Below, in pieces: positions 7,499 to 63,749 of a stretch of 64,000 nucleotides of DNA (position 1 is its first letter; the number at the start of each line of letters is the position of its first letter). The DNA comes from Parcubacteria group bacterium LiPW_15. Its GTDB lineage: Bacteria > Patescibacteriota > Minisyncoccia > UBA6257 > 2-01-FULL-56-20. The notes below the pieces were generated by a model. The model did not search any database. It worked only from the letters and a program-made list of their open reading frames with translations, and had not been told where the DNA came from. A program made the position numbers and the translations under genes. The DNA lies in the NCBI GenBank assembly GCA_007375645.1, contig VMER01000001.1:69139-133138 (forward strand). The letters run 5' to 3'.

Positions 7499-7508
7499 TT
7501 AGCAACTG

Positions 7509-14241: not shown

Positions 14242-14262
14242 TTTTTCGTTCGGAGTTCCCGA

Positions 14263-15491: not shown

Positions 15492-15492
15492 G

Positions 15493-17792: not shown

Positions 17793-18068
17793 CTATGAGG
17801 GTATATCAAGTCAGGCGAGGGAATCCCTCCCGCCTTCGGCGGTCGGGATTCCCTCGCGGACTCGGAAGGAAGGGGATAGAAGGCCAAAAAAAAGTCAACC
17901 AGGTCATCCAGGTATTCAAGAGCTTGATCACGGGAAAGAACTAGGTTGTAGTCCCGCTTAAAGATTCTGGTTATCTCGACAATTAGTGGTTCGCTATACT
18001 GCGTCATAAAAAAATAGGCTTTTTCGGAAGCCTATTCTTTTGAGCCGTGATTCACTTTCGTTCGCCGG

Positions 18069-18650: not shown

Positions 18651-18802
18651 GTTGAAAAAATAGCGGATTTATTGGATAATTTCAATACAACTGAATAACG
18701 GCCTAAACCGCTTAGCGATAGGTGGCATGGTCAAAAAACTTTCGAGGGCATCAAGCTCCTAGTCAGAGCACCCTCGAAAGTCATACCCCGAAAGGAGTAT
18801 GG

Positions 18803-19333
18803 GTGTCGCAAGACATCGCTGGCTGGGAGCTTTATGTTTCTGGCCAAATAAAATACTACATGGACGCAAAGTTTATAAAACATTTAATAAAGGGAAAAAT
18901 CGCCGAGATTATTTTTGAGCAAATGTTTCGTGAATCAGGGAAATATACAATTCTTCATTCCGGCTACGAATACACCCTGCCCGAGCTGGCTCAATATCAG
19001 CATCTTACGGAAGTGAAGGCCGTAATAGAAAATATCAAAAATGCGCCGGATTTCGTATTAATATCACAAGACAAAAAGGAAGTTCACTTGGTGGAGGTCA
19101 AATATCGCGACCCTAGAAGGCCGGAAGACTTGAAAGAAATAGTCGGAAAAACCTTAGAGATTTGGAATCCATCTTGGCTGTTTGTTGCATCACCTGACGG
19201 ATTTTTCTTTGAACCCTGCAACACAGTTTTAAGAAATAACGGGAATATTGAACGAATGTATGCAAGGTGGGTTGACCCTAAAATCCAGGAAGAATACCTC
19301 AAGCTGCTCAACCAATTTGAGCTGAAAGGATAG
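18803..19333 (+). CDS. PD-(D/E)xK-fold nuclease-like protein (start uncertain, ORF opens at 18722)
   Basis: APDFVLI ... VHLVEVKYR (D ... ExK); SD aaaggag 5 nt before in-frame GTG at 18803. Confidence 0.45.
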   Translation: MSQDIAGWELYVSGQIKYYMDAKFIKHLIKGKIAEIIFEQMFRESGKYTILHSGYEYTLPELAQYQHLTEVKAVIENIKNAPDFVLISQDKKEVHLVEVKYRDPRRPEDLKEIVGKTLEIWNPSWLFVASPDGFFFEPCNTVLRNNGNIERMYARWVDPKIQEEYLKLLNQFELKG

Positions 19334-19391
19334 CAATATTGTTGTGCTGACTTAATTTGCCTAGTTGAAAAGCGAGGGGTAGTATTTGGTT

Positions 19392-21011: not shown

Positions 21012-21027
21012 TCTAAAGTTTCTAATT

Positions 21028-21357
21028 ATGAGAATAAAAGATCTATTTAAATCAACCGGCATTTCGCAATCATTCGGAGGCGTAGCTCCTCGATTGGATA
21101 AAAATAATTGTCGGGTTGAAAATAAGACCAAAAATGAAGACTCGGTGCTACTTCGTTTAAAAAGGATGTCAGACGGAGAGGAGGGAAATGCATATTTGAG
21201 GGTTCAAGAACAATTTTCAAGCATAACCCCGCAATTGCTTGGTTGGGCTTTTAATAGCAATAAAATTATTGGGCTTTCTCTAAACGAGCTGGACGACTTT
21301 GAAACAGGCCTTGAAATAGAAAATTTACAAGGACGACTTCGATTAATTACTGATTAA
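21028..21357 (+). CDS. hypothetical protein
   Basis: ORF only; no SD. Confidence 0.3.
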   Translation: MRIKDLFKSTGISQSFGGVAPRLDKNNCRVENKTKNEDSVLLRLKRMSDGEEGNAYLRVQEQFSSITPQLLGWAFNSNKIIGLSLNELDDFETGLEIENLQGRLRLITD

Positions 21358-21393
21358 AAAGGTTCCAACATCGTTCCATTCCGTGCAAAATAT
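21356..21393. repeat. R1: degenerate copy of tRNA-Leu 3-prime half (aaaaaggttccaacatcgttccattccgtgcaaaatat)
   Basis: about 85% identical to R2 over 40 nt. Confidence 0.55.
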
Positions 21394-21394
21394 T

Positions 21395-21886
21395 ATGATA
21401 CTACTTATTTTAACCTCAATACTCAAAGCAATAATTGCCTGGTTTATTATCACTTATGTCGGGACCAATCTCATTGGTTTTATTGGGAGGGGTCTTTGGG
21501 AAGAAAGATTGGATGTGAATAAATTAGATCTCTCTGATAATCCTATAAAGGATCTTGCAAAGAAAGAAATTAAAAGATGGAACAACTCTGGCGACATAAT
21601 AACCGGGTTATCATTTTTGGCTACAATAGGAATTTGTTATTACTTGTACAGTTATTGGGGAACTCTATTTTTGATTGCCATCATTATAACAATGGCAAGC
21701 AGGGCACCAGATCTTTATTGGGAGGTTCGCGTCCTTCCAAAACAATTAGGCATACCATATCCAGTTCCAAAAGATTTAATTCGGAAAGCAATAAAAGAAG
21801 ATAAAAACAAATCTTTATTTAAAACCCTACTAGGGCTTTCGAGTTTCGCAACGTTCGTAATTCTTTTTATAGCATTCTTTATTTAA
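21395..21886 (+). CDS. hypothetical 4-TM membrane protein bracketed by R1 and R2
   Basis: hydrophobic helices; ATG at 21395 after GTG-extended ORF from 21383. Confidence 0.45.
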   Translation: MILLILTSILKAIIAWFIITYVGTNLIGFIGRGLWEERLDVNKLDLSDNPIKDLAKKEIKRWNNSGDIITGLSFLATIGICYYLYSYWGTLFLIAIIITMASRAPDLYWEVRVLPKQLGIPYPVPKDLIRKAIKEDKNKSLFKTLLGLSSFATFVILFIAFFI

Positions 21887-21916: not shown

Positions 21917-21955
21917 AAAAAGGTTCCAACATCGTCCCATCCCGCGCACAAAATA
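21917..21955. repeat. R2: attR-like degenerate copy of tRNA-Leu T-arm/acceptor 3-prime half (aaaaaggttccaacatcgtcccatcccgcgcacaaaata)
   Basis: aligns to tRNA 15561-15587; exact cccgcgcacaa. Confidence 0.55.
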
Positions 21956-22110
21956 AAAATACTACCCTCGCGGTAGTGTTTTTGTTTTCGTGTGTTGGAA
22001 GAAGAGGATTTGAACAAGGAGGAGGGGTCGGGAGGAAGCGTGGCGTCCTCCCGTGTCGGAGATTATTCTCGCCCCAAGAAGATTCCGCGTATAAGTTGTA
22101 TAATTAAAAT

Positions 22111-31970: not shown

Positions 31971-32067
31971 ATTTTGCGTTTTAAGATAAAAAAAGAGCCG
32001 CAGGCTTGGCTCGACCTTTCGGTCGAACGGTGCCTTTGGCTCAGTGGCGAACGAGAGACGGTCGATC

Positions 32068-32550
32068 TCAGGGGTTGAGGTCTCCATTCTCGAGCTCGCC
32101 GTCGTAGTCTTCGGGGAAATAGTCGGAGAGGAACCCGTCGGCGCGGGACATCTCGCGCCACTCCTCGGACCTTGCGACCGCCGCCGAGTCGTTCTGGAAA
32201 GCCAGCTTTCTCTCCTCGAGATAGGCTAGCGCTTCCTCCTCCGACTCCGTGAGGAGTACTCCGTGGTCGGGGTGGGTCAGATCGTTGATGAAGAAACCCT
32301 TCTCCACGAGGCGCTGTGTTTCGAAGGGATGTCCGGCGTAGCTGCCGCGCTGGAAGGCCGGAGAGTCTGCGTTCAGGAAGACCTTGGGGCTCGGCTCTCC
32401 GCAGAGAATGTGCTCCGTGTCGATTCTGGAGATGACGAACGGCCCCTCAACTCCCGTGGGTTTGCCGTAGAGTGACGTCACACACCAGAAGCCGCCCCCA
32501 GGTTTCAGGGTGTTGAGAAACTCTGTAGTGGATAAAATGACTCTTGTCAT
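32068..32550 (-). CDS. hypothetical protein (160 aa), GC-rich
   Basis: SD aaggagaaggg before ATG. Confidence 0.45.
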   Translation of the reverse strand: MTRVILSTTEFLNTLKPGGGFWCVTSLYGKPTGVEGPFVISRIDTEHILCGEPSPKVFLNADSPAFQRGSYAGHPFETQRLVEKGFFINDLTHPDHGVLLTESEEEALAYLEERKLAFQNDSAAVARSEEWREMSRADGFLSDYFPEDYDGELENGDLNP

Positions 32551-32593
32551 TACCCTTCTCCTTCTTTCTCAAATCTAGTTACGAGATGGGGGA

Positions 32594-33019
32594 CTAGGGA
32601 GTCGCGAGGCCGAACTTCATCCGCTCCTCGGCGAGGAGAAGATGAGCCTCTCGTTTCGCCTGACGCGTGAGAGGCACCGTCTTATTCGCGACGCAGTAGA
32701 GAATGATAGTGCCCTCGCGGGCGACGACGGCTTCGGTGATGAATACGTCGCCGTCGACATATCCGACGACGTAGGCCTCCTGTACCACTTCACCCCTCGC
32801 ATCGTAGAAGCGCGTGAGGCTTCGTACGCGGGAGGGATGAAGGGGCCAGTCGGCTCTCGAGCGGGTGATGCGGATGAGACCATCCGCGGTTACGCTCCTC
32901 ATCTTAACCACTTCGCCGAAACCTGCCCTCTCGCCCACTTTGTAGACGAGGAGGCAGGAACACACGATCGTTGAGATGGCGAGGACTACCACGAGAAACG
33001 TGGCCAACTTCTTGGGCAT
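32594..33019 (-). CDS. hypothetical N-terminally membrane-anchored protein (141 aa), GC-rich
   Basis: SD ggagaaggagaaaagg before ATG; TM FLVVVLAISTIVCSCLLV. Confidence 0.45.
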   Translation of the reverse strand: MPKKLATFLVVVLAISTIVCSCLLVYKVGERAGFGEVVKMRSVTADGLIRITRSRADWPLHPSRVRSLTRFYDARGEVVQEAYVVGYVDGDVFITEAVVAREGTIILYCVANKTVPLTRQAKREAHLLLAEERMKFGLATP

Positions 33020-33227
33020 TTCCTTTTCTCCTTCTCCGTTTCAGTTCCGGGACAAAGGGGGAAATTCGGTATTGCCCCCATAATTCCGGAACCGAAATAT
33101 GTTCAAAAGTCTGCGGAGATTGTATCATACAAATAACTATTTGTCAAACTAGAATGCCTACGTTTTGCGGAGTCAACTGATTTTTAATTGGTTTGTTCGT
33201 ATGGCTTTTTTAGCTTAAAATTAGGGA

Positions 33228-38476: not shown

Positions 38477-38710
38477 ATGCCGGAAAAGGTGTGGGCTTAT
38501 TGCAAAGGGTGTGAGAAGAACCGCGATTTCCATTTCGCGTACGATCACGTCTCAAACATCGAAGATGTGGTGAAGCGTGGAGCAACTCCTCGGAAGATGC
38601 GCATCTTCCGCTGCCCTCAGTGTCTTGAGGAGTGCGATGAAGGATCGGTTCCCAAGCCGAAGCTCGAAGCCTTGGATAGGATCAAGGCCCGACAGCTCAG
38701 GGCGACGTAG
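38477..38710 (+). CDS. small zinc-ribbon protein (2x CxxC), GC-rich
   Basis: CKGC..CPQC; SD caggagg 8 nt upstream. Confidence 0.5.
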   Translation: MPEKVWAYCKGCEKNRDFHFAYDHVSNIEDVVKRGATPRKMRIFRCPQCLEECDEGSVPKPKLEALDRIKARQLRAT

Positions 38711-38740
38711 ATCTATCTACCGAAAGGAGCGCCAACGAAC

Positions 38741-38953
38741 GTGACCAATCAGATCCTCGGACATTGCGAGCGATGCCACTGCGACAAGTTCTTCGTCAGG
38801 GCTCAGCAAGCAGACGGGAATCTCGAAGAAGAAACCACCTTGGAGTGCCCGACCTGCGAGGTGAGGTACTTTTCGGATGAGCTTCCTGCGCCGAAAAATA
38901 CTCGTCTCCCCAGAGAACCGACCAAGAAGTTAAAGGAGATGAGGTTTTGCTGA
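38741..38953 (+). CDS. small zinc-ribbon protein (2x CxxC, GTG start), paralog-like
   Basis: CERCHC..CPTC; terminator ggccgcccgaaagggcggcc plus T-tract at 38961-38993. Confidence 0.45.
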   Translation: MTNQILGHCERCHCDKFFVRAQQADGNLEEETTLECPTCEVRYFSDELPAPKNTRLPREPTKKLKEMRFC

Positions 38954-43366: not shown

Positions 43367-43464
43367 TGATATTGATTATAACATTTTAAACACTTCGATA
43401 CTTTTAAAATTCCAAAAATTATAAAAATAGCCCTCGTCTTTTGGGGACGAGGGCAGGGTGCCGG

Positions 43465-43647
43465 TTACTTCGACGCGGGTTCGGCAGTCTCGGTCGCGGT
43501 TGCCGGAGCCTTCGGATCCGAAGCGTTCTTCGCGGGATTGAGCGCGAGCCACGCGGCGAAGCCGAGGACCAGGATTCCGGCCAAAAGACCAAGGACGAGG
43601 TGGGACGAGGCCTTCTTTTTTTCGGTGACGGACTCGAACACAGGCAT
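43465..43647 (-). CDS. hypothetical small membrane protein (60 aa)
   Basis: single TM; AGGAG directly abuts ATG, so spacing is poor. Confidence 0.25.
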   Translation of the reverse strand: MPVFESVTEKKKASSHLVLGLLAGILVLGFAAWLALNPAKNASDPKAPATATETAEPASK

Positions 43648-43716
43648 CTCCTTTTTCCTTCGTTGCGTTTCGTTGCAAAGGGTTAAGGTCGGAGAAGTAG
43701 CGGGGTGGAAATCGTA

Positions 43717-44220
43717 CTACTGCACGTACCAACCACCGTCTGGAGGCGAAGTATCGTTACTCACCGCTTCGTTGGCGAGCCCATACGACTTGAAGACGAT
43801 GGTGACTTTCTCGCCTTCGCGCCGCGGACCGGAAGTCGAGGTTATCGCGCCGACGACATCGGGAAGTCCGAGTATCGGCGGGTCCAGGCGGACCGTAACC
43901 AAGAGAACTCCGGCCCCCATGAGCGTAGCGGCGGAGTGGGTCGAGACAATCACGCCCGTTTGCGGGCCGAGGGACCGAACTTCGAGTCGCGGAACCTCGA
44001 AAACCTTGACCGCCAAGTTCTCATTCCGCCGCGTGTCGCGCGTCTTCCGATCTTCCCTCTGCGCGATGAGCGATGCGGCGAAGATGAAAAACGCAGAAAG
44101 GATCACCATGAACGGGACAATCTTCTTCGTCGGACGACAGAAGAGGACGCGGACGATGGCAACGCACAGCGAGGTGACGCCAAGGAAGGTAAAGATCAGC
44201 GAAATGTTCGAAGGCGACAT
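43717..44220 (-). CDS. hypothetical membrane-anchored protein (167 aa) in a GC-rich patch
   Basis: SD aaggat 5 nt before ATG; two N-terminal TM helices. Confidence 0.4.
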   Translation of the reverse strand: MSPSNISLIFTFLGVTSLCVAIVRVLFCRPTKKIVPFMVILSAFFIFAASLIAQREDRKTRDTRRNENLAVKVFEVPRLEVRSLGPQTGVIVSTHSAATLMGAGVLLVTVRLDPPILGLPDVVGAITSTSGPRREGEKVTIVFKSYGLANEAVSNDTSPPDGGWYVQ

Positions 44221-44537
44221 TTTATCCTTCTTTCTCGCGCAAGACGCGCGCAGATGTTTTCAAGGTTCGTTTAGGAACGCCCACATTATGTCGAATATCT
44301 AAAAAAAGTCAATTAGATTTTCCCGCCGCGTAGAAATCTAGCATCTGAGGGGATTGCCGGAGGTTCCGCGGGTGAGGCGTTTGTATTTTCCCTGTGGAGT
44401 TTTCCCGTATGGCGGGAGTCCTCGGAGTCCGATGAGCCAGGTCTTCGCAGGAATGCGAAGTCATCGGACGAGAGACAGCGAGCAGTTTTCGCCGGGGAAA
44501 CCGAATCGCGGTCCCGCCATACGGGAAAACGTAGCCA

Positions 44538-56114: not shown

Positions 56115-57656
56115 ATGGCAAAAGAAAAAAAAGACGTAGTATTTTTCGCGAAAACGGACTTCCGGGACGCCGACCGAATTTTCGGTATTAAGCGCGCCGA
56201 CCGGAGACAGCATATGTATGTGATAGGAAAGACGGGAACCGGTAAAACCACTTTGCTTCGCAACATGGTCATTCAAGACATCGCGAACGGCGAGGGTCTT
56301 TGCGTGGTGGACCCGCACGGAGAGTTCGTCGAAGATCTTTTGAAAATGATCCCGAAAGACAGATTGGACGATGTGGTCTACTTTAACCCGGGCGACCCCG
56401 ATTTTCATGTCGGCTTTAATCCTTTGGAGATAAGCGACCCGAGGTATAAGCATCTTGTGGCTTCCGGACTGATGGCCATCTTTACCAAGATCTGGGCTGG
56501 CGTTTGGTCGCCTAGAATGGAATATATTTTGAACAACTGCGTCTTGGGCCTTTTGGATACTCCGGGGACAACTCTCTTGGGAATACCGAGGCTTCTGGTG
56601 GACAAGGAATTCAGGCAAAAAGTAGTCGCGAATATTCAGGATCCGGTGGTCAAAGCTTTCTGGTCCACGGAATACGAAGCCTGGAAAGACCAATATCGAA
56701 ACGAGGCCATTGCCCCTATCCAAAACAAAGTAGGACAATTTTTGTCCGTTACTTTGGTCAGGAATATTGTCGGACAGCAAAAGAGCACCGTGGATTTCTT
56801 CGAGATAATGAACAGCGGAAAGATCCTCTTGGTTAACGTGTCTAAGGGCAGGATCGGAGAAGATAACTCCGCGCTTTTGGGCGCGATGGTTATCACCAAG
56901 ATACAGCTCTCCGCGATGGATCGCATCCGTGTTCCCGAAGAAGAGCGCGTGGACTTCTACTTATATGTCGACGAATTTCAAAACTTCGCGACCGATTCTT
57001 TCGCCAATATCCTTTCCGAGGCGCGCAAATACCGTCTTTGTCTTACCATGGCGCATCAATACATCGGCCAGCTGGTGACGGATGTTTCCACAAAAGTTCG
57101 GGATGCTATTTTCGGTAACGTGGGAACCCAAATGATCATGAGAGTCGGTGCGGCTGATGCGGATTTTCTGGCCAAGGAATTGGAGCCGGAATTCGGCGCG
57201 CAGGACATGGTGAATCTTCCGAATCGCAGAATATATCTAAAGCTTATGGTGGACGGCGTGACTTCCCGTTCGTTTTCCGCCGCCACTTTGCCTCCGATAA
57301 AAACTCAATTTGAAGCTGCTGCGGAAGAAGACGTTATTAAAACCTCAAGGAAACGTTATGCCCGGCCTCGTTACGCGGTAGAGGAAGAGATAAGCGAGTG
57401 GAGCGAGGTTATGGGAGGCCCCCGAGGCGGGTCGCCAGCGCCGAGACAGGAAGCTCCTAGGCAAATGATTCCTTCCGAAGAACGAAGAGAAGCCCCGACT
57501 CAAACAATTTCCTTGAAAGAACTTGAAGGCAAAGAAACTTTCCCGTCCAAAGAAAAGGAACGGAAACCGGTTGAACCGTCGGATATTGATTCGGTAAGAA
57601 AAATGATAAGCGATGCAATGTCCGCTCCGAAAGACGAAGACGAAAATGAAAAATAA
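56115..57656 (+). CDS. P-loop ATPase of TraD/TrwB/VirD4-like (type IV coupling protein or HerA-like) family
   Basis: Walker A VIGKTGTGKTTLL, Walker B LYVDEFQNF, acidic C-terminal tail. Confidence 0.45.
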   Translation: MAKEKKDVVFFAKTDFRDADRIFGIKRADRRQHMYVIGKTGTGKTTLLRNMVIQDIANGEGLCVVDPHGEFVEDLLKMIPKDRLDDVVYFNPGDPDFHVGFNPLEISDPRYKHLVASGLMAIFTKIWAGVWSPRMEYILNNCVLGLLDTPGTTLLGIPRLLVDKEFRQKVVANIQDPVVKAFWSTEYEAWKDQYRNEAIAPIQNKVGQFLSVTLVRNIVGQQKSTVDFFEIMNSGKILLVNVSKGRIGEDNSALLGAMVITKIQLSAMDRIRVPEEERVDFYLYVDEFQNFATDSFANILSEARKYRLCLTMAHQYIGQLVTDVSTKVRDAIFGNVGTQMIMRVGAADADFLAKELEPEFGAQDMVNLPNRRIYLKLMVDGVTSRSFSAATLPPIKTQFEAAAEEDVIKTSRKRYARPRYAVEEEISEWSEVMGGPRGGSPAPRQEAPRQMIPSEERREAPTQTISLKELEGKETFPSKEKERKPVEPSDIDSVRKMISDAMSAPKDEDENEK

Positions 57657-58281
57657 GCTCGAGGTAGTTATTCTAACTGCCTTTCCGAAGATATTCGATT
57701 CTTATTTGAACGAGTCGCTTTTTAAGCGCGCTATTGCCAAAAAGATATTGAAATTTAAGATAGTGAACTTGCGTGATTTCGCGACCGGTAAACACAAGAA
57801 AATCGACGATCGGCCGTTCGGCGGGGGACCGGGAATGGTCTTGATGGTAGAGCCGATAACCAAGGCGCTTAAATCGCTAGGCGCGAAAAATAAAACCAGA
57901 ACTATTTTGTTTTCCACCCGGGGTAAAAAGTTAGATGCGGCGATGGCGAAGCGACTTTCCAAATATGACCGGCTTATCCTAATTTCGGGCCGCTACGAGG
58001 GCGTGGACGAACGAGTGGCGGAAGCGTTGGCGGACGAAGAAGTGTCTATCGGAGATTTTGTGCTTTCGGGAGGCGAACTTCCCGCCTTGGTGCTTTCCGA
58101 ATCTGTCGCGCGATTCCTACCCGGATTCTTGGGCAAACTCGAATCGCTCGAGGAACTTAAAGGTTCATATCCCGTTTATACTCGTCCCGAGGAGTTCAAG
58201 CTCGGGAAAAAGAAGCTAAAAGTCCCGCAGGTCCTGCTTTCGGGAGATCATAAAAAGATCGAGGAGTGGAGAAGAAAATAA
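57646..58281 (+). CDS. trmD: tRNA (guanine37-N1)-methyltransferase TrmD
   Basis: VVILTAFPKIF, DDRPFGGGPGMV, SIGDFVLSGGE. Confidence 0.85.
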   Translation: MKNKLEVVILTAFPKIFDSYLNESLFKRAIAKKILKFKIVNLRDFATGKHKKIDDRPFGGGPGMVLMVEPITKALKSLGAKNKTRTILFSTRGKKLDAAMAKRLSKYDRLILISGRYEGVDERVAEALADEEVSIGDFVLSGGELPALVLSESVARFLPGFLGKLESLEELKGSYPVYTRPEEFKLGKKKLKVPQVLLSGDHKKIEEWRRK

Positions 58282-58359: not shown

Positions 58360-59577
58360 ATGATTAGAATCACTAACATCAAAATCGAAAATTTTCGTTC
58401 CTGTATAAGTACCACGATTGCCTTACGCAAGGATTTGACAACTTTGATAGGTATCAACGGAGCTGGGAAGAGCAATATTCTAACCGGCATTCAACTACTG
58501 AGGTCGGCGGTGGCGACAAGTAGAAATAGATTTATTCATAAAGGCATTAGAGAGTCTCTTTCTCAAACTAACATCAGGTTAGATATAGACATCGACAACA
58601 AAAAATATATTCTGAAGGCAAATATCTACTACGATACAGATGAAGAAAATATAGACGAAATTGATTCCGTTGAAATTTTTATCAAAAAAGCAGGCTCTAC
58701 TCGGACTTGGGCCCCAATAAACGGACGCTCGTTAGATCTTATCCAACGATATAAATATCTACATAGAGTCCCGGAGAACTACATTCACTATTACAGTGAT
58801 TTTAATGCCGAGGATAAATTAAACATTAGAATATTGGAATACTTAGCAAGCATAAGTTATTACGGCGCAACTCAATTTTCGGATCCAACACAATCTCCAG
58901 TATCAATAGAGCTCGAAGACTCCAAACCTTCCTTGAGGACATATAGAACGGGGATGCCGCATAATAAATTTATTTTTGATTTATTTATTAGCTGGAAAAA
59001 AAAGAAAAAAGAATTTAATAGATTTATTAATATAGTCAACAAAAATGGAATTGGTTTAATCAGCGATATCAAATTTGCTGAGTTTAACTTACCCAATAGC
59101 ACCTATGGGGTTAAACCAGGGGGGAAGATTAGAAAGGAGGTCAAAAGTAAAAATATTATAATTCCCTCAGTCATTCTTGACGGCTTGTCGTTATCCCCGA
59201 ATCAACTTTCAGAGGGAACATTCAAAACGCTAGCGTTAATATTTTATATACTCAATGATCAAAGCGAACTTCTTTTAATTGAAGAGCCGGAAGTTTGTGT
59301 GCATCACGGTTTACTAAATAGCATAATTGAATTAATTAAAATCCAGTCAAAGCAGAAACAAATAGTTGTCAGCACCCATTCAGACTACGTCTTGGACAAA
59401 ATTAATCCAGAGAACGTTATAATCGTTAGGCGCAATAAAAAGGATGGTACAACTGCCAAGGCGTTGACCAAAACCCTTTCAAAGAACGACTTCGCGGTCT
59501 TGAAGGAATATTTAAACACCTCCGGAAACCTGGGTGAATATTGGAAGGAAGGGGGATTCGAAAATGAGCCAGATTAA
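58360..59577 (+). CDS. ABC-type (AAA_21/OLD-N-like) ATPase, AT-rich
   Basis: IKIENFRS..LIGINGAGKSN (Walker A), LLLIEEPEVCVHH (Walker B/D-loop), VVSTHS (H-loop). Confidence 0.7.
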   Translation: MIRITNIKIENFRSCISTTIALRKDLTTLIGINGAGKSNILTGIQLLRSAVATSRNRFIHKGIRESLSQTNIRLDIDIDNKKYILKANIYYDTDEENIDEIDSVEIFIKKAGSTRTWAPINGRSLDLIQRYKYLHRVPENYIHYYSDFNAEDKLNIRILEYLASISYYGATQFSDPTQSPVSIELEDSKPSLRTYRTGMPHNKFIFDLFISWKKKKKEFNRFINIVNKNGIGLISDIKFAEFNLPNSTYGVKPGGKIRKEVKSKNIIIPSVILDGLSLSPNQLSEGTFKTLALIFYILNDQSELLLIEEPEVCVHHGLLNSIIELIKIQSKQKQIVVSTHSDYVLDKINPENVIIVRRNKKDGTTAKALTKTLSKNDFAVLKEYLNTSGNLGEYWKEGGFENEPD

Positions 59578-60142
59578 GCGCATCGGCATAATTGCCGAAG
59601 ATGAGAGCGATTTTGAATCATCGAAAATTCTTATAAGGCGGTTAACTAAAAAAAAGAATTTAGATTTTAGAAAAAGTCTCGCAAACGGTTGTGGCAGGTT
59701 AAAGAGGAAGGCACCTACTTTTGCGGTTGATTTAAAAAATAGAGGTTGTGATTTGCTAATTCTCATGCATGACTTGGACAAGAATAATCTTGAAAAATTA
59801 AGGACGGAACTTGGAAAATTATTGCGCGGGAATCCTTTTCCAAAATATTTTGTTTGTATTCCAATCGAAGAAATTGAAGCATGGTTTTTAAGTGATCCGG
59901 CTACCATTAAAAAAGTTTTTAAGCTTAAACGCACTCCGAAAGTTGGCGACGAACCAGAGAGTATTGATTCTCCGAAAGAGAAATTAGGAGAATATGTTTA
60001 TTCATGCTCGGGTAATGAAAAAAAATATATTAATACGCACCATAATGCGCAGCTTGCATCGCAAGTCTCGCTAGATTTAATCAGAAAGAAGTGTGGGGCT
60101 TTCAATGAGTTGTGTAATTTTATTCTGACCCAAAAATATTAA
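59564..60142 (+). CDS. small Toprim-like (RloB/DUF4276-like by motif) partner protein, translationally coupled to the ATPase
   Basis: IGIIAEDESDFE (E-x-x-S-D Toprim glutamate motif) and LLILMHDLD (DxD); SD ggaaggaaggggg; 14-nt overlap with ATPase stop. Confidence 0.5.
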   Translation: MSQIKRIGIIAEDESDFESSKILIRRLTKKKNLDFRKSLANGCGRLKRKAPTFAVDLKNRGCDLLILMHDLDKNNLEKLRTELGKLLRGNPFPKYFVCIPIEEIEAWFLSDPATIKKVFKLKRTPKVGDEPESIDSPKEKLGEYVYSCSGNEKKYINTHHNAQLASQVSLDLIRKKCGAFNELCNFILTQKY

Positions 60143-60167
60143 AAACCCGTTTATTTCTTGGAAAAGT

Positions 60168-60196
60168 TTGACATCGCCCGCGCGGATTGATAATCT
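60168..60196 (+). promoter_or_regulatory. putative sigma-70 promoter TTGACA-N17-TAATCT driving the GC-rich island
   Basis: about 35 nt before ATG 60230. Confidence 0.45.
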
Positions 60197-60229
60197 GCGG
60201 CCAGTATCGATTGAAAGGGGAGACAGGCA

Positions 60230-60496
60230 ATGAGCCACAAGAATCCGACCGGTTGTTGGGTGTACAAAGGAAGCTACTCCGTGCTTCTCGCGGACGAGGC
60301 GGGCACCAATCATCTACCGCCAGGAGCGGTGTTGAGCGGTAGGACTGTGCGTGTTCAGGATGGATCGGTCGCTCAGTCGATGGGCGGCATCAACCTCTAT
60401 GCCGAGGGAATCTCTTTCGGCTGGGGCTACAAGGGCCTCAAAGAGATCCGCGATGGCAGAGGCAAGCTCCTCTGGCAGAACAAAGACTATCGCTGA
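60230..60496 (+). CDS. hypothetical protein (88 aa), GC-rich
   Basis: SD aaaggggag. Confidence 0.45.
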   Translation: MSHKNPTGCWVYKGSYSVLLADEAGTNHLPPGAVLSGRTVRVQDGSVAQSMGGINLYAEGISFGWGYKGLKEIRDGRGKLLWQNKDYR

Positions 60497-60537
60497 ACAG
60501 ATTTCTGAATCGGCGGAACAGAGAAGGGAGAAGTTAC

Positions 60538-60765
60538 ATGTCCGAGAAATTCTCTGCGGGAAGCAATGTGCGTCTCTACGAAGGGCCAGCTTTCCACCGG
60601 GTCCGACCCATGGTTTCCCCGCTCGTGCACGGAGAGACGTACGTGGTGGCGGAGACCATGGTGAGTACATGCTCCGGGGGACAGGAGGGACAACTCGTTC
60701 GTGTCCATCTGCCCAACGGCTGTAGGTCCAACTGGATCGAAGCGACCTGGCTCTGCCAGGCTTAG
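60538..60765 (+). CDS. small SH3b-like domain protein (75 aa), GC-rich
   Basis: SNVRLYEGPAFHRVRP..GETYVVAE..W..V.LPNGCRSNWIEATWL resembles bacterial SH3_3; SD gggagaag. Confidence 0.4.
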   Translation: MSEKFSAGSNVRLYEGPAFHRVRPMVSPLVHGETYVVAETMVSTCSGGQEGQLVRVHLPNGCRSNWIEATWLCQA

Positions 60766-60778
60766 ATCAGCTCTCTCA

Positions 60779-60858
60779 GGGCCTTCCGGGAAACCGGACG
60801 GCCTTTTTCATTTCAAAATTATAGCTTTTCATAATATACAAAATAACGGAGAAAATAT
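60779..60858 (+). repeat. DR-A: terminator hairpin ggccttccgggaaaccggacggcc plus T-tract and about 55 nt homologous to DR-B
   Basis: about 70% identity to 62297-62378 over 80 nt. Confidence 0.55.
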
Positions 60859-60859
60859 C

Positions 60860-60888
60860 TTGACGTTCGGCATAAAAAGTGCTACTAT
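60860..60888 (+). promoter_or_regulatory. putative sigma-70 promoter TTGACG-N17-TACTAT
   Basis: precedes 60952 gene. Confidence 0.45.
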
Positions 60889-60951
60889 CCTCGCATTAAG
60901 CAGCACCTTTAAACGGCACCTATGCCATAAAATAGGGGAAAGGAGGAGTCC

Positions 60952-61524
60952 ATGCTTCTCTCGGTTCTCGCCGCGTTGTTCCAAGTGTCCGCTTACGTGG
61001 CATATTTCGCTCAGGTGAGCGCCGGCGGATCAATTCCGAACCCGGCTTCCTGGAGCGTGTGGGCGCTTCTTTCCATCCTGAATGCCCTGACGTTCTGGAG
61101 GGCTTCGAAGGATGCGCTCGCAACAGCGCAGTTCTTCACCGGATCAGTCGCCTGTGTCATGGTTTGGACTTACTCGCTCATGACGGGGAAGTTCGTTCCG
61201 TTGGACACAAAAGCGTGGCTCGTTCTCATCTTCTGCTTCGTGGCTTGTGCGATCTGGTATGTGAAGCGAAGCGCGATTTACGCCAATCTCGTGATTGCCG
61301 GCATCTTCACCGTTTCATCGGTGCCGACTTTCGTGGGCGTGTGGCGAAACAGCCATGTGGAACAGCCGCTTGCGTGGATGTTCTGGACAACCGCATTTGC
61401 GGTTACCACGATCAACGTGCTTCGGCGAACCGATCGAACAAAACCGCGCTGGTGGTTCATCATGGCTATGCCGATCTATGGCCTCGTCTTCCACGGCCTG
61501 ATCGCCATCTGCGCTGCACGATAA
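60952..61524 (+). CDS. hypothetical 6-TM membrane protein, GC-rich
   Basis: SD aaaggaggag. Confidence 0.5.
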   Translation: MLLSVLAALFQVSAYVAYFAQVSAGGSIPNPASWSVWALLSILNALTFWRASKDALATAQFFTGSVACVMVWTYSLMTGKFVPLDTKAWLVLIFCFVACAIWYVKRSAIYANLVIAGIFTVSSVPTFVGVWRNSHVEQPLAWMFWTTAFAVTTINVLRRTDRTKPRWWFIMAMPIYGLVFHGLIAICAAR

Positions 61525-61537
61525 GAAGGGAGGATGT

Positions 61538-61885
61538 ATGTTCACAGCAAAGCGTTATCCGGAGGGAAAGTTCCCTCCCAAACGAGGCTCCAGAAGTATC
61601 TGGCACGTTCATTGCATGACAGGCGCCATCCAGGTCTTGAGGGACCTCGAGTTCCTGAAGGCTCTGGAGGACAATCCGCGTGACAGTGCCAAGATCCTTT
61701 TCGACGACGAATCCGAGGCGCTCGTCTCTCCCGGAGACGAACTTTGGGAGGAGCTCTTGAAGTTCGTCGCGGGGGGTTTCAAAATCGCGGTTTTCCCGTT
61801 CATTTTCAAGGCGAGGTACGTTCCCTGGACGGGCGCCCCGACCGACGCGAAGGAATTCGACGCCATTGAAATCAGGAAATCCTAA
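61538..61885 (+). CDS. hypothetical protein (115 aa), GC-rich
   Basis: SD aagggagga. Confidence 0.45.
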   Translation: MFTAKRYPEGKFPPKRGSRSIWHVHCMTGAIQVLRDLEFLKALEDNPRDSAKILFDDESEALVSPGDELWEELLKFVAGGFKIAVFPFIFKARYVPWTGAPTDAKEFDAIEIRKS

Positions 61886-61911
61886 CCAACCGAACAAGGA
61901 GAGGAGAGTAT

Positions 61912-62271
61912 ATGCCGCTCGTTACCATCCACCACAAGTTCGGTGTCCCTCAGGAGGACATCATCTGGAGCCTGGCCAAGGAATTGCCGGAAATCGTCGC
62001 CGAGGCCCTGAATGTGAAGGGAAAACCCGAGGCGCATCTCGACCCGGGCGATGTGGAGGTTCGGATCTCGAGGCTCGGCGAGCACGACGTGAACACGCGC
62101 GACGTCGAGATCATCGTCACTGCGAACTTCTACCTCGAGCGCATGGCGAACCTCGAGGAACGCGAGGAGATGATCCTGAACGCCGTCCGCGACTTTTTCG
62201 CTGACTACGATTTCAACGTCTCCGGTTACGTCTGGATCGACCTCAAGCTCGCCGCATTCGGCGCGCTGTAA
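61912..62271 (+). CDS. tautomerase-superfamily-like protein (Pro1 after Met), GC-rich
   Basis: MPLVTIHHKFGVPQEDIIWSLAKELPEIVAEAL resembles N-terminal beta-alpha-beta of 4-OT/MIF-like tautomerases; SD aaggagaggagag. Confidence 0.4.
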   Translation: MPLVTIHHKFGVPQEDIIWSLAKELPEIVAEALNVKGKPEAHLDPGDVEVRISRLGEHDVNTRDVEIIVTANFYLERMANLEEREEMILNAVRDFFADYDFNVSGYVWIDLKLAAFGAL

Positions 62272-62296
62272 CAAGACAGACGCAGCAGTTCTTCAT

Positions 62297-62378
62297 GGCC
62301 GTTCGGGAAACCGAGCGGCCTTTTTCTTTTGTAAAATTAGAACTTGTTATACTTTTATACATAATGGCGGCGGAAATA
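62297..62378 (+). repeat. DR-B: terminator hairpin ggccgttcgggaaaccgagcggcc plus T-tract and about 55 nt homologous to DR-A; overlaps comEC promoter region
   Basis: see DR-A. Confidence 0.55.
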
Positions 62379-63749
62379 GTTTTTTCGCTTTTCTCGGGAT
62401 TTATCTTAGGCGTTGTCGCGAGCGGTTCGGGAGTTAACATCTATACCGGCATTGTCGGATTTTTTATCGTAATCGCCGCCAGCTTTTTCTTGAGGCGAAA
62501 TCTTACAAAATACTTCGCCGTAGCTCTAGCCGCGTTTCTTTTGGGCTTCTTTTATTTTGTTTTATATGGGAAATTAGCCAGTGCGAAATATCCTAGTTTT
62601 GGAGTGAAAATCGCTATGGAGGTTATTGTCACGGGAGAAACGAGGATAAGCGGGACAGTTCAGCGGACAAAAGCCAAGCTGCTGCCACCATACGGCGGGG
62701 CGATAGATCTGGTTTCAAACGAAGGAATCCTTTTGGAATATGGCGACAGGATAAAATTTGAAGCCGCGCTTAACCCGGATAAGTATTCCACTCGTCCGGC
62801 GGCGAGAGTATACGCCCCGGAAATTGTTTCCAAAAATAACGGTTCGGGGCTCAAGCAATCGCTTCTGGGACTAAAAACAAATCTGCTCAAATCTCTCAAA
62901 GAAAATCTATCACCGCCCTCGGCCGCGCTCATGGGCGGACTTCTCTTGGGCGATAGGAATAGCTTTTCCGCGGACTTTAAAACCGCGATGAAGGGGAGCG
63001 GGACGACCCACCTGGTCGCGCTTTCGGGGTTCAATATAACGATCCTTGTAAACGCCATAGCGCTGGCCCTTGGCTCATTTTTGTCCCGCAAAATGCGCTT
63101 CGCGCTTTCGATAATGATCATCATCCTTTTTATCGTAATGGTCGGGGCGGAAGCGTCGGTCGTTCGGGCGGGGATTATGGGCGCGCTTCTCTTAATTTCC
63201 CAAGAGAGCGGAAGAATATATTCGCCGAGAAACGCAATAGCTTTTGCCGGATTTGCGATGACCGCTTGGGATCCGAATAACGTTTTCGATATCGGATTTA
63301 TCCTTTCTTTTGTGAGCCTAATGGGAATCGTATATATTCTGCCGGCCGTTAAAAACACATTTTTGCCGGGGAAAAATCCGAAAGGAATCGAGGAAGCGGC
63401 GCTTATGACCGTTTCCGCCCAGGCGGCGGTGTTGCCGATAGCCATAAAAACCTTCGGCGGGTTTTCTTTAACCGCGATAATTTCCAATTCGCTTATCACC
63501 GGTTTTGTTCCATACGCGATGCTTTCCGGATTTTTGGTTGCTGTCGCCGATTTCTTTTCGGCCGCCCTCTCATTTTTCTTCGGTTTTTTCGCCGAGATAG
63601 GTATGAAATATTTTATCTTTATAATCGAATTCTTCTCGCGGGTTCGTCTGCCCTTCGGAGATTTCCTAAACATTCCTTACGCCGCGGCAATTTATTACAT
63701 ATGTCTTATAATTTTTGTATATGCAGGGATTACCAAAGTTAAGCAATAG
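62364..63749 (+). CDS. comEC: ComEC/Rec2 competence channel, membrane domain only (ORF opens at 62295 inside the terminator)
   Basis: many TM helices, HLVALSGFNITIL (ComEC signature); stop at 63747-63749. Confidence 0.8.
   Translation: MAAEIVFSLFSGFILGVVASGSGVNIYTGIVGFFIVIAASFFLRRNLTKYFAVALAAFLLGFFYFVLYGKLASAKYPSFGVKIAMEVIVTGETRISGTVQRTKAKLLPPYGGAIDLVSNEGILLEYGDRIKFEAALNPDKYSTRPAARVYAPEIVSKNNGSGLKQSLLGLKTNLLKSLKENLSPPSAALMGGLLLGDRNSFSADFKTAMKGSGTTHLVALSGFNITILVNAIALALGSFLSRKMRFALSIMIIILFIVMVGAEASVVRAGIMGALLLISQESGRIYSPRNAIAFAGFAMTAWDPNNVFDIGFILSFVSLMGIVYILPAVKNTFLPGKNPKGIEEAALMTVSAQAAVLPIAIKTFGGFSLTAIISNSLITGFVPYAMLSGFLVAVADFFSAALSFFFGFFAEIGMKYFIFIIEFFSRVRLPFGDFLNIPYAAAIYYICLIIFVYAGITKVKQ

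What the first reader, a model, noticed from the sequence alone, without database searches (positions are those of the whole stretch)
60160..62380. GC-rich five-gene island with its own consensus promoters and two homologous 80-bp terminator modules
From about 60180 the GC content jumps to roughly 57-60%, against about 47% for core genes. Five plus-strand genes each have a strong SD. They encode two small beta-rich proteins (one SH3b-like), a 6-TM protein, an unknown protein and a tautomerase-like protein with Pro1. Two near-consensus promoters (TTGACA-N17-TAATCT at 60168 and TTGACG-N17-TACTAT at 60860) drive two units. Each unit ends in a GNRA-loop hairpin followed by a T-tract (60779-60808 and 62297-62330). 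The 80 nt that contain each terminator are clearly homologous at about 70% identity. Genes 3 to 5 are therefore a cassette flanked by imperfect direct repeats and inserted just upstream of comEC. It lies next to the AT-rich defence-like pair, so the trmD-comEC interval is a compositional mosaic typical of a variable accessory hotspot.
Basis: partly seen in the sequence, partly recalled or inferred. Interest (0 to 1): 0.65.

Follow-up and report, generated by a model that had tools for sequence, protein, structure and literature searches.

The report
Shuffled GC-rich mini-operons upstream of comEC
Between two housekeeping genes of an uncultured ultra-small (Parcubacteria) bacterium lies a variable slot filled with small, unusually GC-rich, self-contained gene units that related genomes carry in different combinations and orders, or lack entirely. 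This is an ordinary kind of accessory-gene hotspot with some unusual features.

Summary
Window 60160-62380 (Parcubacteria bacterium LiPW_15) carries five + strand genes with GC 55.5-60% and GC3 70-84%, against a window mean GC of 47%. They form two promoter-to-terminator units, and both end in related GNRA-loop hairpin terminators.

Five relatives show that the trmD-comEC gap is a hotspot. One genome has it empty. The others carry the units (g1,g2 / g3,g4,g5 / a third unit absent here) in different combinations and in a different order, with single genes gained or lost inside units. The five genes do not travel as a set.

g3 is not a recent insert. It already sits upstream of comEC in an outgroup and is still GC-rich there.

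g1-g4 are under purifying selection. g5 belongs to an unannotated family of at least 350 clusters with a conserved Pro1.

No integrase, phage or plasmid signal was found.

Best reading: an array of autonomous, moron-like transcription units, reshuffled by recombination at their similar terminator/promoter joints. That mechanism is inferred. Why the units stay GC-rich is unexplained.

The parts
57613..58281 (+). trmD, the conserved left flank of the hotspot
   Evidence: Pfam tRNA_m1G_MT, E = 2e-48. Syntenic in L001, L009 and L029.
58360..59577 (+). AT-rich AAA ATPase, the HEC-01A-like defence-candidate component
   Evidence: Pfam AAA_21/AAA_15. PADLOC HEC-01A, E = 1e-28. GC 36.5%. Relatives carry other genes in its place.
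59564..60142 (+). AT-rich DUF4276 protein, the HEC-01B-like partner
   Evidence: Pfam DUF4276, E = 5e-18. PADLOC HEC-01B, E = 1e-13.
60168..60196 (+). Promoter of unit U1: TTGACA-N17-TAATCT with a TG extension
   Evidence: Read from the sequence. Conserved in L001 at 7977 and in L039. Homology with L001 begins at window 60162. Function is inferred.
60230..60496 (+). g1, 88 aa, GC-rich, no known family
   Evidence: GC3 70%. Orthologues in L001 (72%) and L039 (86%). dN/dS 0.20. No Pfam, NCBIfam, PHROG or PADLOC hit.
60538..60765 (+). g2, 75 aa, GC-rich, no known family
   Evidence: GC3 71%. Orthologue in L001 (70%), dN/dS 0.18. Absent from L015 and L039, where the terminator follows g1 directly.
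60776..60870 (+). Joint module 1: hairpin 60780-60803 (GAAA loop), T-run, AT-rich spacer
   Evidence: The hairpin is orthologous to that in L015/L039. The stretch from the T-run onward matches the region after a different hairpin in L001 and L029.
60860..60888 (+). Promoter of unit U2: TTGACG-N17-TACTAT with TG
   Evidence: Promoter scan. Conserved in L001, L006 and L015.
60889..60951 (+). Conserved leader of g3
   Evidence: The 100 nt upstream of g3 are 90% (L001), 96% (L015) and 78% (L006) identical, far above synonymous sites. No Rfam hit. No stable fold, z = -0.5.
60952..61524 (+). g3, 190 aa multi-pass membrane protein of a Parcubacteria-wide uncharacterised family
   Evidence: 19 homologues and 10 metagenome loci. 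42 invariant columns. Seven hydrophobic segments. dN/dS 0.09. No Pfam or PDB match by profile.
61538..61885 (+). g4, 115 aa, no known family, fast-evolving
   Evidence: Orthologues in L001 and L039 at about 70%. dN/dS 0.17-0.33. Absent from L006.
61912..62271 (+). g5, 119 aa, a Pro1 protein with a tautomerase-superfamily fold
   Evidence: 350 cluster representatives at E <= 1e-3. M1-P2 nearly invariant, R77 invariant. AF2 pLDDT 96.6. Foldseek top hits are MIF, CHMI, cis-CaaD, MSAD and fused 4-OT. Absent from L001. 62% identical in L039.
62293..62363 (+). Joint module 2: hairpin 62297-62320 (GAAA loop), T-run, spacer up to the comEC start
   Evidence: Homology with the empty site in L009 resumes at window 62340.
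62364..63749 (+). comEC membrane domain, the conserved right flank
   Evidence: Pfam Competence, E = 2e-44. 81-84% aa identity to L001, L009 and L029, and 65% to L006.

Best explanation
The trmD-comEC gap of this Parcubacteria (Paceibacterota) lineage is an accessory-gene hotspot with two layers. Next to trmD sits an interchangeable AT-rich defence-type islet, here a HEC-01-like pair. Next to comEC sits an array of autonomous, moron-like transcription units.

Each unit has a sigma-70-type promoter, one to three small GC-rich genes with strong ribosome-binding sites, and a hairpin/T-run terminator. The window holds U1 (g1, g2) and U2 (g3, g4, g5). These are real, selected genes of unknown role: two small proteins, a conserved multi-pass membrane protein, a fast-evolving small protein, and a Pro1 enzyme-like protein of the tautomerase superfamily.

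Units, and single genes inside units, are gained, lost and re-ordered among relatives. The inferred mechanism is recombination at the short, mutually similar terminator-spacer-promoter joints. This could be unequal crossing-over or deletion between joints, or re-integration of looped-out or imported DNA through a joint. No dedicated recombinase would be needed.

What is shown: composition, gene reality, unit architecture, terminator homology with compensatory changes, presence/absence and order variation, and breakpoints lying at joints.

What is inferred: promoter and terminator activity, recombination at the joints as the cause of the rearrangements, and an origin of the GC-rich genes in a gene pool shared with GC-richer Paceibacterota.
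For: - Architecture and composition.
- Fillings of the same slot in the relatives:
  - L009: empty. trmD, 194 nt containing a palindrome, then comEC.
  - L029: 179 aa + pP_pnuc_1 + Metallophos | Ux (gB, gC) | comEC.
  - L001: 255 aa + Metallophos | U1 (g1, g2, gA) | Ux (gB, gC) | U2 (g3, g4) | comEC.
  - L039/L040/L015: Metallophos | U1 (g1 only) | U2 (g3, g4, g5') | a Ux-type unit with a new 107-aa gene | comEC. Here U2 and Ux are in the opposite order to L001.
  - L006 (outgroup): MFS | g3 | comEC.
- Breakpoints lie at joints:
  - The U1 indel between L001 and L029 is bounded by the two -35 TTGACA boxes.
  - Homology of the window to L001 starts at 60162, just upstream of the U1 -35.
  - Window module 1 combines the GNRA hairpin with the T-run/spacer that follows a different hairpin in L001 and L029.
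- The terminator hairpin is kept by compensatory changes. Across five copies, 98% of cells are paired and 2 of 10 pairs change on both sides.
- The genes are real: dN/dS is 0.09-0.33, and g5 has a large family.
- All unit genes are GC-rich in every relative (GC3 0.57-0.77), while core genes are at 0.42-0.58.
- GC-rich Paceibacterota exist in which a g3 homologue has native composition. L002-L004 are 62-63% GC.
- Literature: most detected gene transfers into Patescibacteria come from other Patescibacteria (PMC12455944).
- Independent assemblies from different samples share the arrangement, so it is not a chimeric assembly.
Against: - No recombination event was observed. The role of the joints is read from six static arrangements.
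- The joints are short. Outside the hairpin their similarity is only marginally above AT-rich background: score 27 against a best-elsewhere score of 26.
- Hairpins of this exact design arise independently. Seven unrelated phage contigs in IMG/VR carry one.
- Synonymous divergence does not discriminate vertical inheritance with losses from exchange between lineages. Island dS against L001 is 0.61-0.89, lower than core dS of 1.06-1.9. But core dS between L001 and L029 itself ranges from 0.62 to 1.44.
- The persistent GC richness of g3 over dS of about 1.7 is not explained by simple import from a GC-rich donor.
- The functions of g1-g4 are unknown.
Confidence: 0.62

Rival explanations
1. A single, recent horizontally acquired island from a high-GC donor was inserted as one piece (or U2 as one cassette) upstream of comEC. 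Its GC excess is an unameliorated donor signature.
For: The GC and GC3 contrast is strong. Direct repeats flank g3-g5. An empty site exists in L009. High-GC Paceibacterota carrying a g3 homologue exist.
Against: - g1-g4 are present in L001, about as diverged as the core genes.
- g3 is next to comEC in the outgroup L006, with dS 1.66 against 1.73 for comEC, and still has GC3 65%.
- g2, g4 and g5 vary independently.
- The closest g3 homologue in a high-GC genome is only 55% identical.
Confidence: 0.08
2. Ordinary differential gene loss in a decaying intergenic region. The ancestor carried all units, lineages lost different pieces by random deletions, and the similar terminators are merely old duplicates or convergent designs with no role. 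GC richness reflects selection on these genes (codon use or mRNA).
For: - The U1 and U2 distribution fits two losses on the comEC tree.
- Hairpins of this design arise convergently.
- The similarity of the 3' part of the module is marginal.
- GC3 stays high over deep divergence, as expected under selection.
Against: - Loss alone cannot give a different unit order (U1-Ux-U2 in L001 against U1-U2-Ux' in L039).
- A new gene replaces gB/gC behind the same promoter in L039, with a gB remnant left.
- g5 differs by 38% where g3 differs by 8%.
- g3 homologues sit in unrelated contexts elsewhere.
- Ribosomal-protein and other core genes of the window do not share the high GC3.
Confidence: 0.2
3. An integron-like or other site-specific cassette system. 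The hairpins would be recombination sites (attC-like) recognised by a recombinase encoded elsewhere.
For: The array consists of small unrelated ORFs, each block ending in an imperfectly conserved hairpin, stacked at one site next to a fixed gene, with variable order.
Against: - No integrase or other recombinase was found among the called genes of the stretches examined around the hotspot (up to about 8 kb upstream and 9 kb downstream) in any of five genomes.
- The units carry their own promoters.
- The hairpins are fully paired GNRA stem-loops followed by a T-run, which makes them intrinsic terminators. They show no bulged bases and no R/L box pattern.
- One unit uses a different hairpin.
- The hairpin occurs only at this locus in the window and in the fetched loci.
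Confidence: 0.05
4. A remnant of a prophage, plasmid or other mobile element.
For: The units resemble phage morons (promoter-gene-terminator with deviant composition). A defence islet and a TraG-like gene lie nearby.
Against: - No PHROG family matches any unit protein.
- tblastn finds no match in 50,697 phage or 72,556 plasmid records.
- No g3 relative is present in IMG/VR.
- The TraG-DUF8128 block is conserved core synteny in all relatives, including the empty-site genome.
Confidence: 0.03

Closest known systems
Phage 'morons'. [quoted passage not shown] The concept comes from Hendrix, Juhala and colleagues (own knowledge).
   Same: The units are autonomous promoter-gene(s)-terminator blocks. 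They are present or absent between conserved neighbours in related genomes, their base composition is deviant, and their acquisition mechanism is unknown.
   Different: They sit in a cellular chromosome with no phage signal. Several are stacked in one slot and permuted. They are GC-richer, not AT-richer, than the host. The units hold 1-3 genes. The deviant composition is old rather than recent.
Chromosomal HGT hotspots, 'genomic islets' and defence islands between conserved core genes (own knowledge of the hotspot literature). Genomic islands have been reported in Patescibacteria (PMC12455944).
   Same: Flanks are conserved (trmD, comEC). Content varies among close relatives and an empty site exists. 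A defence-type pair (HEC-01-like) is interchangeable with other nuclease/phosphoesterase genes. Transfers are mostly within the phylum.
   Different: There is no integrase, tRNA or IS element. The second layer consists of uniformly GC-rich genes of unknown families. The rearrangement unit is the transcription unit.
Integron gene-cassette arrays
   Same: Small unrelated ORFs are stacked at one site, each block ends in a related imperfect hairpin, and order is variable.
   Different: There is no IntI/attI. The cassettes have promoters. The hairpins are terminators rather than attC sites. See the membership test.
Tautomerase superfamily, fused two-subdomain members (MIF, CHMI, cis-CaaD, MSAD, fused 4-OT) (PMC5818174). 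This comparison is for g5 only.
   Same: [quoted passage not shown] Pro1 is nearly invariant. A conserved Arg sits at the start of the second subdomain's helix, the region where cis-CaaD has Arg-70/Arg-73 and Linker 2 has Arg-71.
   Different: No Pfam tautomerase-clan model and no PDB sequence matches the family. Structural similarity is moderate (TM 0.5-0.68). Substrate and activity are unknown.

Membership tests
Integron cassette array | A tyrosine-recombinase integrase (IntI) with attI adjacent to the array | tested here: not met
   The genes around the slot are DUF8128, TraG-like, trmD, defence-type genes, comEC, Lactamase_B and Amidohydro. No recombinase was seen in the window region or in L001, L006, L009 or L029. 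The rest of the genome was not searched.
Integron cassette array | attC sites: imperfect palindromes with R''/L''-L'/R' boxes and extrahelical bases, on promoterless cassettes | tested here: not met
   The stems are fully paired 10-12 bp with GAAA loops followed by a T-run. Each unit has its own -35/-10.
Moron-like autonomous unit | A promoter upstream and a factor-independent terminator downstream of the extra gene(s) | tested here: met
   Met by sequence only. The promoter boxes are conserved across relatives. Activity was not measured.
Moron-like autonomous unit | Present or absent between the same neighbours in related genomes, with deviant base composition | tested here: met
Moron-like autonomous unit | Resides in a phage or prophage genome | tested here: not met
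   No PHROG, phage-record or IMG/VR relatives. So it works like a moron but is not a phage moron.
Chromosomal accessory-gene hotspot / genomic islet | Conserved core flanks with different gene content in close relatives, including an empty site | tested here: met
   Six arrangements: window, L001, L029, L039/L040/L015, L006, and L009 (empty).
Intrinsic (Rho-independent) terminator | A GC-rich stem-loop directly followed by a U-tract, at the end of a transcription unit | tested here: met
   with compensatory changes in 2 of 10 pairs. Termination in vivo is not testable here.
Dispersed repeat element (REP/MITE-like) | Many copies scattered through the genome | tested here: not met
   Only two copies in 64 kb, both in the slot. 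In the 31 loci fetched at that point, copies occur only in the same slot. The remaining approximately 418 kb of the genome was not available.
Tautomerase superfamily (g5) | A beta-alpha-beta fold, here two fused subdomains | tested here: met
   AF2 with 51 sequences gives pLDDT 96.6 and strand/helix order b-a-b-b-a-b. Among the top 50 Foldseek PDB hits, all natural proteins are TSF members; the remaining 5 chains are computationally designed cage/nanoparticle proteins of unchecked origin. E is about 1e-4 and TM 0.45-0.68. A single-sequence model (pLDDT 72.7) had instead matched PII-like folds and is superseded.
Tautomerase superfamily (g5) | An N-terminal proline (Pro1) after Met removal | tested here: met
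   M1 and P2 are each present in at least 90% of the 51 family members aligned. The defining role of Pro-1 is described in PMC5818174.
Tautomerase superfamily (g5) | Sequence membership in a recognised subgroup or Pfam clan model | tested here: not met
   No tautomerase-clan Pfam hit in any of 51 members at E <= 0.1. No PDB hit by profile.
Tautomerase superfamily (g5) | Pro1-dependent catalytic activity | not testable with these tools
   This needs an enzyme assay and a P1A mutant.
HEC-01 defence candidate (neighbouring pair) | Adjacent AAA ATPase (HEC-01A) and DUF4276 (HEC-01B) genes | tested here: met
   PADLOC models match at E = 1e-28 and 1e-13, and Pfam gives AAA_21/AAA_15 and DUF4276. 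Defence activity is untested.
PQ-loop / SemiSWEET-like transporter (g3) | Sequence or profile similarity to PQ-loop repeats | tested here: inconclusive
   No PQ-loop or MtN3 hit in 19 members. hhalign against a neighbouring PQ-loop protein from L020 was not significant.

The most novel reading that the evidence does not exclude
Parcubacteria of this clade maintain a recombinase-free gene-cassette system. A shared pool of uniformly GC-rich genes of unknown families, packaged as promoter-to-terminator units, is exchanged between genomes and stacked in any order at a few fixed intergenic slots. The slot next to comEC is one; at least two further GC-rich units lie elsewhere in the same 64 kb. Exchange would run through the short homologous terminator/promoter joints. 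The GC richness would be actively maintained, either by selection on these units or by biased gene conversion at recombining joints, rather than being a fading donor signature.
Probability: 0.15. Interest if true: 0.65.

Novelty: new variant of a known kind. Interest (0 to 1): 0.42.

Why it matters
Candidate Phyla Radiation bacteria have tiny genomes, and about half of their genes have no assigned function. How they acquire and trade accessory genes is poorly known.

This locus gives a clean natural series of six arrangements, including an empty site. It shows that the unit of exchange is a self-contained transcription unit, with no mobile-element machinery in sight. It also shows that the accessory genes are GC-richer than the core and stay so over deep divergence, which is the reverse of the usual rule.

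The locus also flags two sizeable protein families without annotation that could be tested directly. One is a Pro1 tautomerase-superfamily clade of at least 350 clusters at 50% identity. The other is a conserved multi-pass membrane protein found across Paceibacterota.

If the joints really mediate cassette exchange, this would be a simple, recombinase-independent analogue of integron or moron dynamics in cellular genomes.

Tried and rejected
1. Exact-sequence contig look-ups for g5 and g3 returned nothing, although the proteins are in the collection. This was not informative.
2. A concatenated g1+g2+g4 query for the word-indexed homologue search returned no hit, not even the proteins themselves. 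This was a technical failure of the trick, not evidence that they are orphans, and it used the last search of that kind. So the wider distribution of g1, g2 and g4 is unknown beyond L001, L015 and L039.
3. The word-indexed search made g5 look like a single-genome orphan. The exhaustive HMMER search overturned this.
4. The single-sequence AF2 model of g5 matched PII-like ferredoxin folds. This was rejected after the alignment-based model.
5. Riboswitch idea for the conserved g3 leader: no Rfam hit even at E <= 10 and no stable fold. More distant g3 homologues have short, unrelated leaders.
6. PQ-loop/SWEET idea for g3: unsupported by sequence.
7. The hairpin as a mobile or phage-borne element: the IMG/VR matches are unrelated terminators in high-GC phages with no flank homology.
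8. Using lower island dS as proof of exchange between lineages: abandoned because core dS is itself very heterogeneous.
9. An attC-like inverted repeat (AGTTCT...AGAACT) around module 2 is not conserved in module 1 or in L001.
11. A literature search for the genome name (LiPW) gave nothing relevant.

Full report
**Source and observation**

The window comes from 'Parcubacteria group bacterium LiPW_15'. The contig is 481,644 bp and g1-g5 are LiPW15_142 to LiPW15_146.

The five + strand ORFs are:
- g1: 60230-60496, 88 aa
- g2: 60538-60765, 75 aa
- g3: 60952-61524, 190 aa
- g4: 61538-61885, 115 aa
- g5: 61912-62271, 119 aa

Each is preceded by a GGAG/GGAGG-type ribosome-binding site.

Their GC content is 55.5-60.1% and their GC3 is 70-84%. 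The window mean GC is 47.4%. trmD has GC3 56%, comEC 53%, and the AT-rich pair upstream has GC 36%. Across 86 non-overlapping ORFs of the window, GC3 averages 0.53 +/- 0.09. The island is the highest-GC 2.15 kb stretch of the 64 kb.

**Promoters and terminators**

- The promoter TTGACG-N17-TACTAT with a TG extension (60860-60888) is picked up by the scan.
- The promoter at 60168-60196 has a perfect -35 but a -10 (TAATCT) that matches only 3 of 6 positions. It is conserved in relatives.
- Both units end in a 10-bp GC-rich stem with a GAAA loop and a T-run. The stems are at 60780-60803 and 62297-62320, with energies of -19.9 and -21.7 kcal/mol and z-scores of -3.6 and -4.9.

**Homology of the two terminator modules**

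The two ~100-nt modules align with 81% mean column identity. The local alignment score is 69 against 14.5 +/- 2.3 for shuffles. The exact 30-nt consensus occurs nowhere else in the window.

Two caveats apply. Most of the signal is the hairpin and T-run, and the AT-rich 3' part is only marginally above background. Hairpins of exactly this design also occur in seven unrelated high-GC phage contigs with no flank similarity. The hairpin alone is therefore not proof of common descent.

Across five copies of the hairpin (window x2, L001 x2, L015), 98% of cells pair, and two of ten pairs change on both sides (GC/AU/UA and CG/UA). This fits selection on the RNA stem.

**Are these real genes?**

- g1-g4 have orthologues in an independent assembly, L001, at 70-89% aa identity. 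dN/dS is 0.09-0.33. They also have orthologues in L039, L040 and L015.
- None of the five proteins matches Pfam, NCBIfam, PHROGs or PADLOC.
- None has a tblastn match in 50,697 phage or 72,556 plasmid records.

*g3*
- It belongs to a well-conserved family: 19 homologues at 41-89% identity and 42 invariant columns.
- The family was found only in Paceibacterota-type or unclassified contigs, with no relatives in IMG/VR.
- It has seven hydrophobic segments.
- It has no Pfam or PDB relative even by profile.

*g5*
- It looked like an orphan in the word-indexed search. The exhaustive HMMER search then found 350 cluster representatives at E <= 1e-3 and 74 at <= 1e-10. Nearly all are 115-125 aa.
- In a 51-sequence alignment, M1-P2 is nearly invariant and R77 is invariant, with the motif AN-x-YPER-xx-NL-x-ER.
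- An AlphaFold2 model built with that alignment has pLDDT 96.6 and two beta-alpha-beta subdomains.
- Among its top 50 PDB matches, all natural proteins are tautomerase-superfamily members: MIF, CHMI, cis-CaaD/Cg10062, MSAD and fused 4-OT. The remaining 5 chains are computationally designed cage or nanoparticle proteins. TM scores are 0.45-0.68 and E is about 1e-4.
- The superfamily is defined by this fold and by the catalytic N-terminal proline (PMC5818174).
By sequence, however, the family lies outside every Pfam tautomerase model and every solved structure.
- An earlier single-sequence model (pLDDT 72.7) had matched PII-like folds and is superseded.

**The slot in relatives**

By comEC protein identity, L001 and L029 are closest to each other (0.88). 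L009 is at 0.84-0.85 to these and to the window. The window is at 0.81-0.84. L006 is an outgroup at 0.65. All share the DUF8128-TraG-trmD ... comEC-Lactamase_B-Amidohydro synteny where the contig reaches that far.

The gap holds:
- **L009:** nothing. There are 194 nt containing a palindrome, CTTGGTCTCCATATGGAGACCAAG. Homology to the window resumes at window 62340. That palindrome is absent from the window.
- **L029:** 179 aa + pP_pnuc_1 + Metallophos (AT-rich), then one GC-rich unit Ux (gB 79 aa, gC 154 aa), the palindrome, and comEC.
- **L001:** 255 aa + Metallophos, then U1 (g1, g2 plus an extra gene gA), a GNRA-hairpin joint carrying TTGACA-N16-TATAAT, Ux (gB, gC) ending in a different hairpin, then U2 (g3, g4, no g5), a GNRA hairpin, and comEC.
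- **L039/L040/L015:** Metallophos, U1 with g1 only (the terminator follows g1 directly), U2 (g3 92%, g4 70%, and a g5 homologue only 62% identical). Next comes a Ux-type promoter driving a different 107-aa gene with a remnant of gB, the Ux-type terminator, the palindrome, and comEC. Here U2 precedes Ux, whereas in L001 Ux precedes U2.
- **L006:** a GC-rich 77-aa gene, an MFS transporter, g3 (71%) with the same promoter and leader, 236 nt, and comEC.

The suggested test 'do the five genes co-occur as a set' is therefore answered: they do not. g3 homologues also occur alone in unrelated contexts, next to the rpsI operon, next to efp, and elsewhere. g5 homologues occur without any of the others.

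**Where the differences begin and end**

- The U1 indel between L001 and L029 is bounded on both sides by a -35 TTGACA box: GCGAAAAAGTTTGACA|... and ...GAAATATTGACA|....
- Homology between the window and L001 starts at 60162, a few bases before the U1 -35, although the defence genes to the left are unrelated.
- Window module 1 joins the GNRA hairpin seen in L015/L039 to the T-run/spacer TTTTTCATTTCAAAATTAT. In L029 and L001 that spacer follows the other hairpin.
- The spacers of several joints resemble the comEC-proximal sequence of the empty site (...ACTTGGTATACTTT...ATAATGGCGGCGG). That similarity is weak when tested alone.

These observations are what one expects if rearrangements happen by recombination between the short, similar terminator-spacer-promoter joints. 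This is an inference from static arrangements, not a demonstrated mechanism.

**Age and composition**

- g3 against L006 has dS 1.66, like comEC at 1.73. Yet g3 keeps GC3 of about 65-70% in the window, L001, L006 and L039, next to core genes at 42-57%.
- In ten further metagenome loci, g3 homologues are 1-16 GC points richer than their surroundings in nine cases and level (53.6% against 53.6%) in one.
- In a 62-63% GC Paceibacterota genome the homologue has native composition.
- All other unit genes (gA-gD, and a 274-aa gene inserted between secF and the sigma factor gene in L001 only) are GC-rich too.
- The same window contains two more GC-rich units with the same anatomy, at 32000-33150 and 43400-44320.

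So high GC is a stable property of this accessory gene pool, not the mark of one recent import.

Island dS against L001 (0.61-0.89) is lower than that of the flanking core genes (1.06-1.9). That could mean later exchange between lineages. But core dS between L001 and L029 itself ranges from 0.62 to 1.44, so I do not rely on it.

Published work on aquifer Patescibacteria reports that most detectable transfers are between Patescibacteria and are not recent (PMC12455944). That is compatible with a within-phylum gene pool.

**Rivals**

- *Single recent island from a GC-rich donor.* The age of g3 and the independent behaviour of the genes contradict this.
- *Plain differential loss.* It explains presence/absence. 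It does not explain the different unit order, the replacement of gB/gC behind the same promoter, or the 62%/92% contrast between g5 and g3.
- *Integron-like system.* It fails on its defining features. There is no integrase in any of the five neighbourhoods, the units have promoters, and the hairpins are terminators.
- *Phage or plasmid origin.* It has no support.

The closest known analogue in how it works is the phage 'moron': an autonomous promoter-gene-terminator block of deviant composition inserted between conserved neighbours (PMC4378225). Here the blocks sit in a cellular chromosome, stacked and permuted in a hotspot. As a class, it is a chromosomal accessory-gene hotspot with a defence islet. 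The neighbouring pair matches PADLOC HEC-01A/B.

**Verdict**

The 'inserted three-gene cassette' reading is too simple, and the functions remain unknown apart from a fold-level assignment for g5.

Nothing here is categorically new. The unusual points are the uniform and persistent GC richness of the accessory units (the reverse of the usual AT bias), the permutation of whole transcription units without any visible recombinase, and two unannotated protein families. These make it moderately interesting.

Noticed in passing
window 32000-33150 (- strand): A second GC-rich mini-operon with the same anatomy. It has a TTGACA-N17-TACAAT promoter near 33146, two ORFs (32594-33019 of 141 aa and 32068-32550 of 160 aa) with GC about 60% and GC3 75-76% and strong SDs, a hairpin/T-run terminator near 32000-32020, and AT-rich flanks. 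There is no PHROG hit and no similarity to the trmD-comEC units.
   Followed up: partly
window 43400-44320 (- strand): A third GC-rich unit. It has a TTGACT-N17-CATAAT promoter near 44310, ORFs 43717-44220 (167 aa) and 43465-43647 (60 aa), both apparently membrane proteins, and the terminator CCCTCGTC...GACGAGGG + T-run near 43430-43460. A milder case lies at 38477-38953 (two small ORFs, GC3 0.66).
   Followed up: partly
window 60860-60951; L001 9900-10000; L006 1657-1756; L015 190-290: The promoter and approximately 60-nt leader of g3 are far more conserved (78-96% identity) than synonymous sites of the adjacent genes. This includes the small hairpin GGCACCTATGCC followed by ATAAAATAGGGG just before the SD. 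There is no Rfam match and no stable predicted fold. It is possibly a protein-binding or sRNA-binding regulatory leader. It is absent from more distant g3 homologues.
   Followed up: partly
window 58360-60142: The AT-rich pair (GC 36%) matches the PADLOC candidate defence system HEC-01 (AAA ATPase + DUF4276). In relatives, the same position next to trmD holds other genes: a 255-aa protein + Metallophos, or 179 aa + pP_pnuc_1 + Metallophos.
   Followed up: partly
window 14844-21886: A large AT-rich stretch (GC 34-42%) that spans tRNA-Leu(GAG) at 15499-15583 and contains a LOOT RNA match at 18700-18817 (90.9 bits). It looks like an integrated element or another accessory island. A 49-nt direct repeat (84%) lies at 21356-21404 and 21917-21965.
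   Followed up: no
window 7464-7500 and 14207-14243: Two copies (89%) of a 37-nt element containing a perfect palindrome, CCCGGACAGTCCATGGACTGTCCGGG. This is another pair of related terminator-like hairpins at distant sites.
   Followed up: no
window 11761-13299: A full-length 16S rRNA gene with no 23S or 5S match anywhere in the 64 kb, so the rRNA genes appear unlinked. RNase P RNA is at 2200-2563 (- strand).
   Followed up: no
L001 247-1071: A GC-rich (58%, GC3 69%) 274-aa gene of unknown family, with its own terminator, sits between secF and the sigma-70 factor gene in L001. It is absent at the same junction in the window (53207/53238) and in L009. This is another slot where a GC-rich unit comes and goes.
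   Followed up: partly
L026 3900-6364: In a groundwater CPR-type contig, a g5 homologue (44% identity) heads a GC-rich block (GC3 0.61-0.77) that also contains a 172-aa unknown, pyrF and pyrE. The surrounding genes have GC3 0.42-0.57. Compositional mosaicism in these genomes is therefore not limited to genes of unknown families.
   Followed up: no
L018 2868-3155, L008 1945-2352, L020 5083-5373: In three distant genomes the g3 homologue is immediately followed by a small membrane protein. In L020 this is a PQ-loop protein (Pfam E = 3.6e-5), and the L018 and L008 proteins are related to each other. This hints that g3 works in small-molecule transport, but no sequence link between g3 and the PQ-loop family was found.
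   Followed up: partly
window 62340-62366: The annotated comEC ATG (62364) overlaps a -10-like CATAAT. The conserved TTGKTATAC...ATAATGGCGGCGG sequence is kept in all relatives, including the empty site. The true comEC promoter and start (possibly leaderless) are unclear.
   Followed up: no
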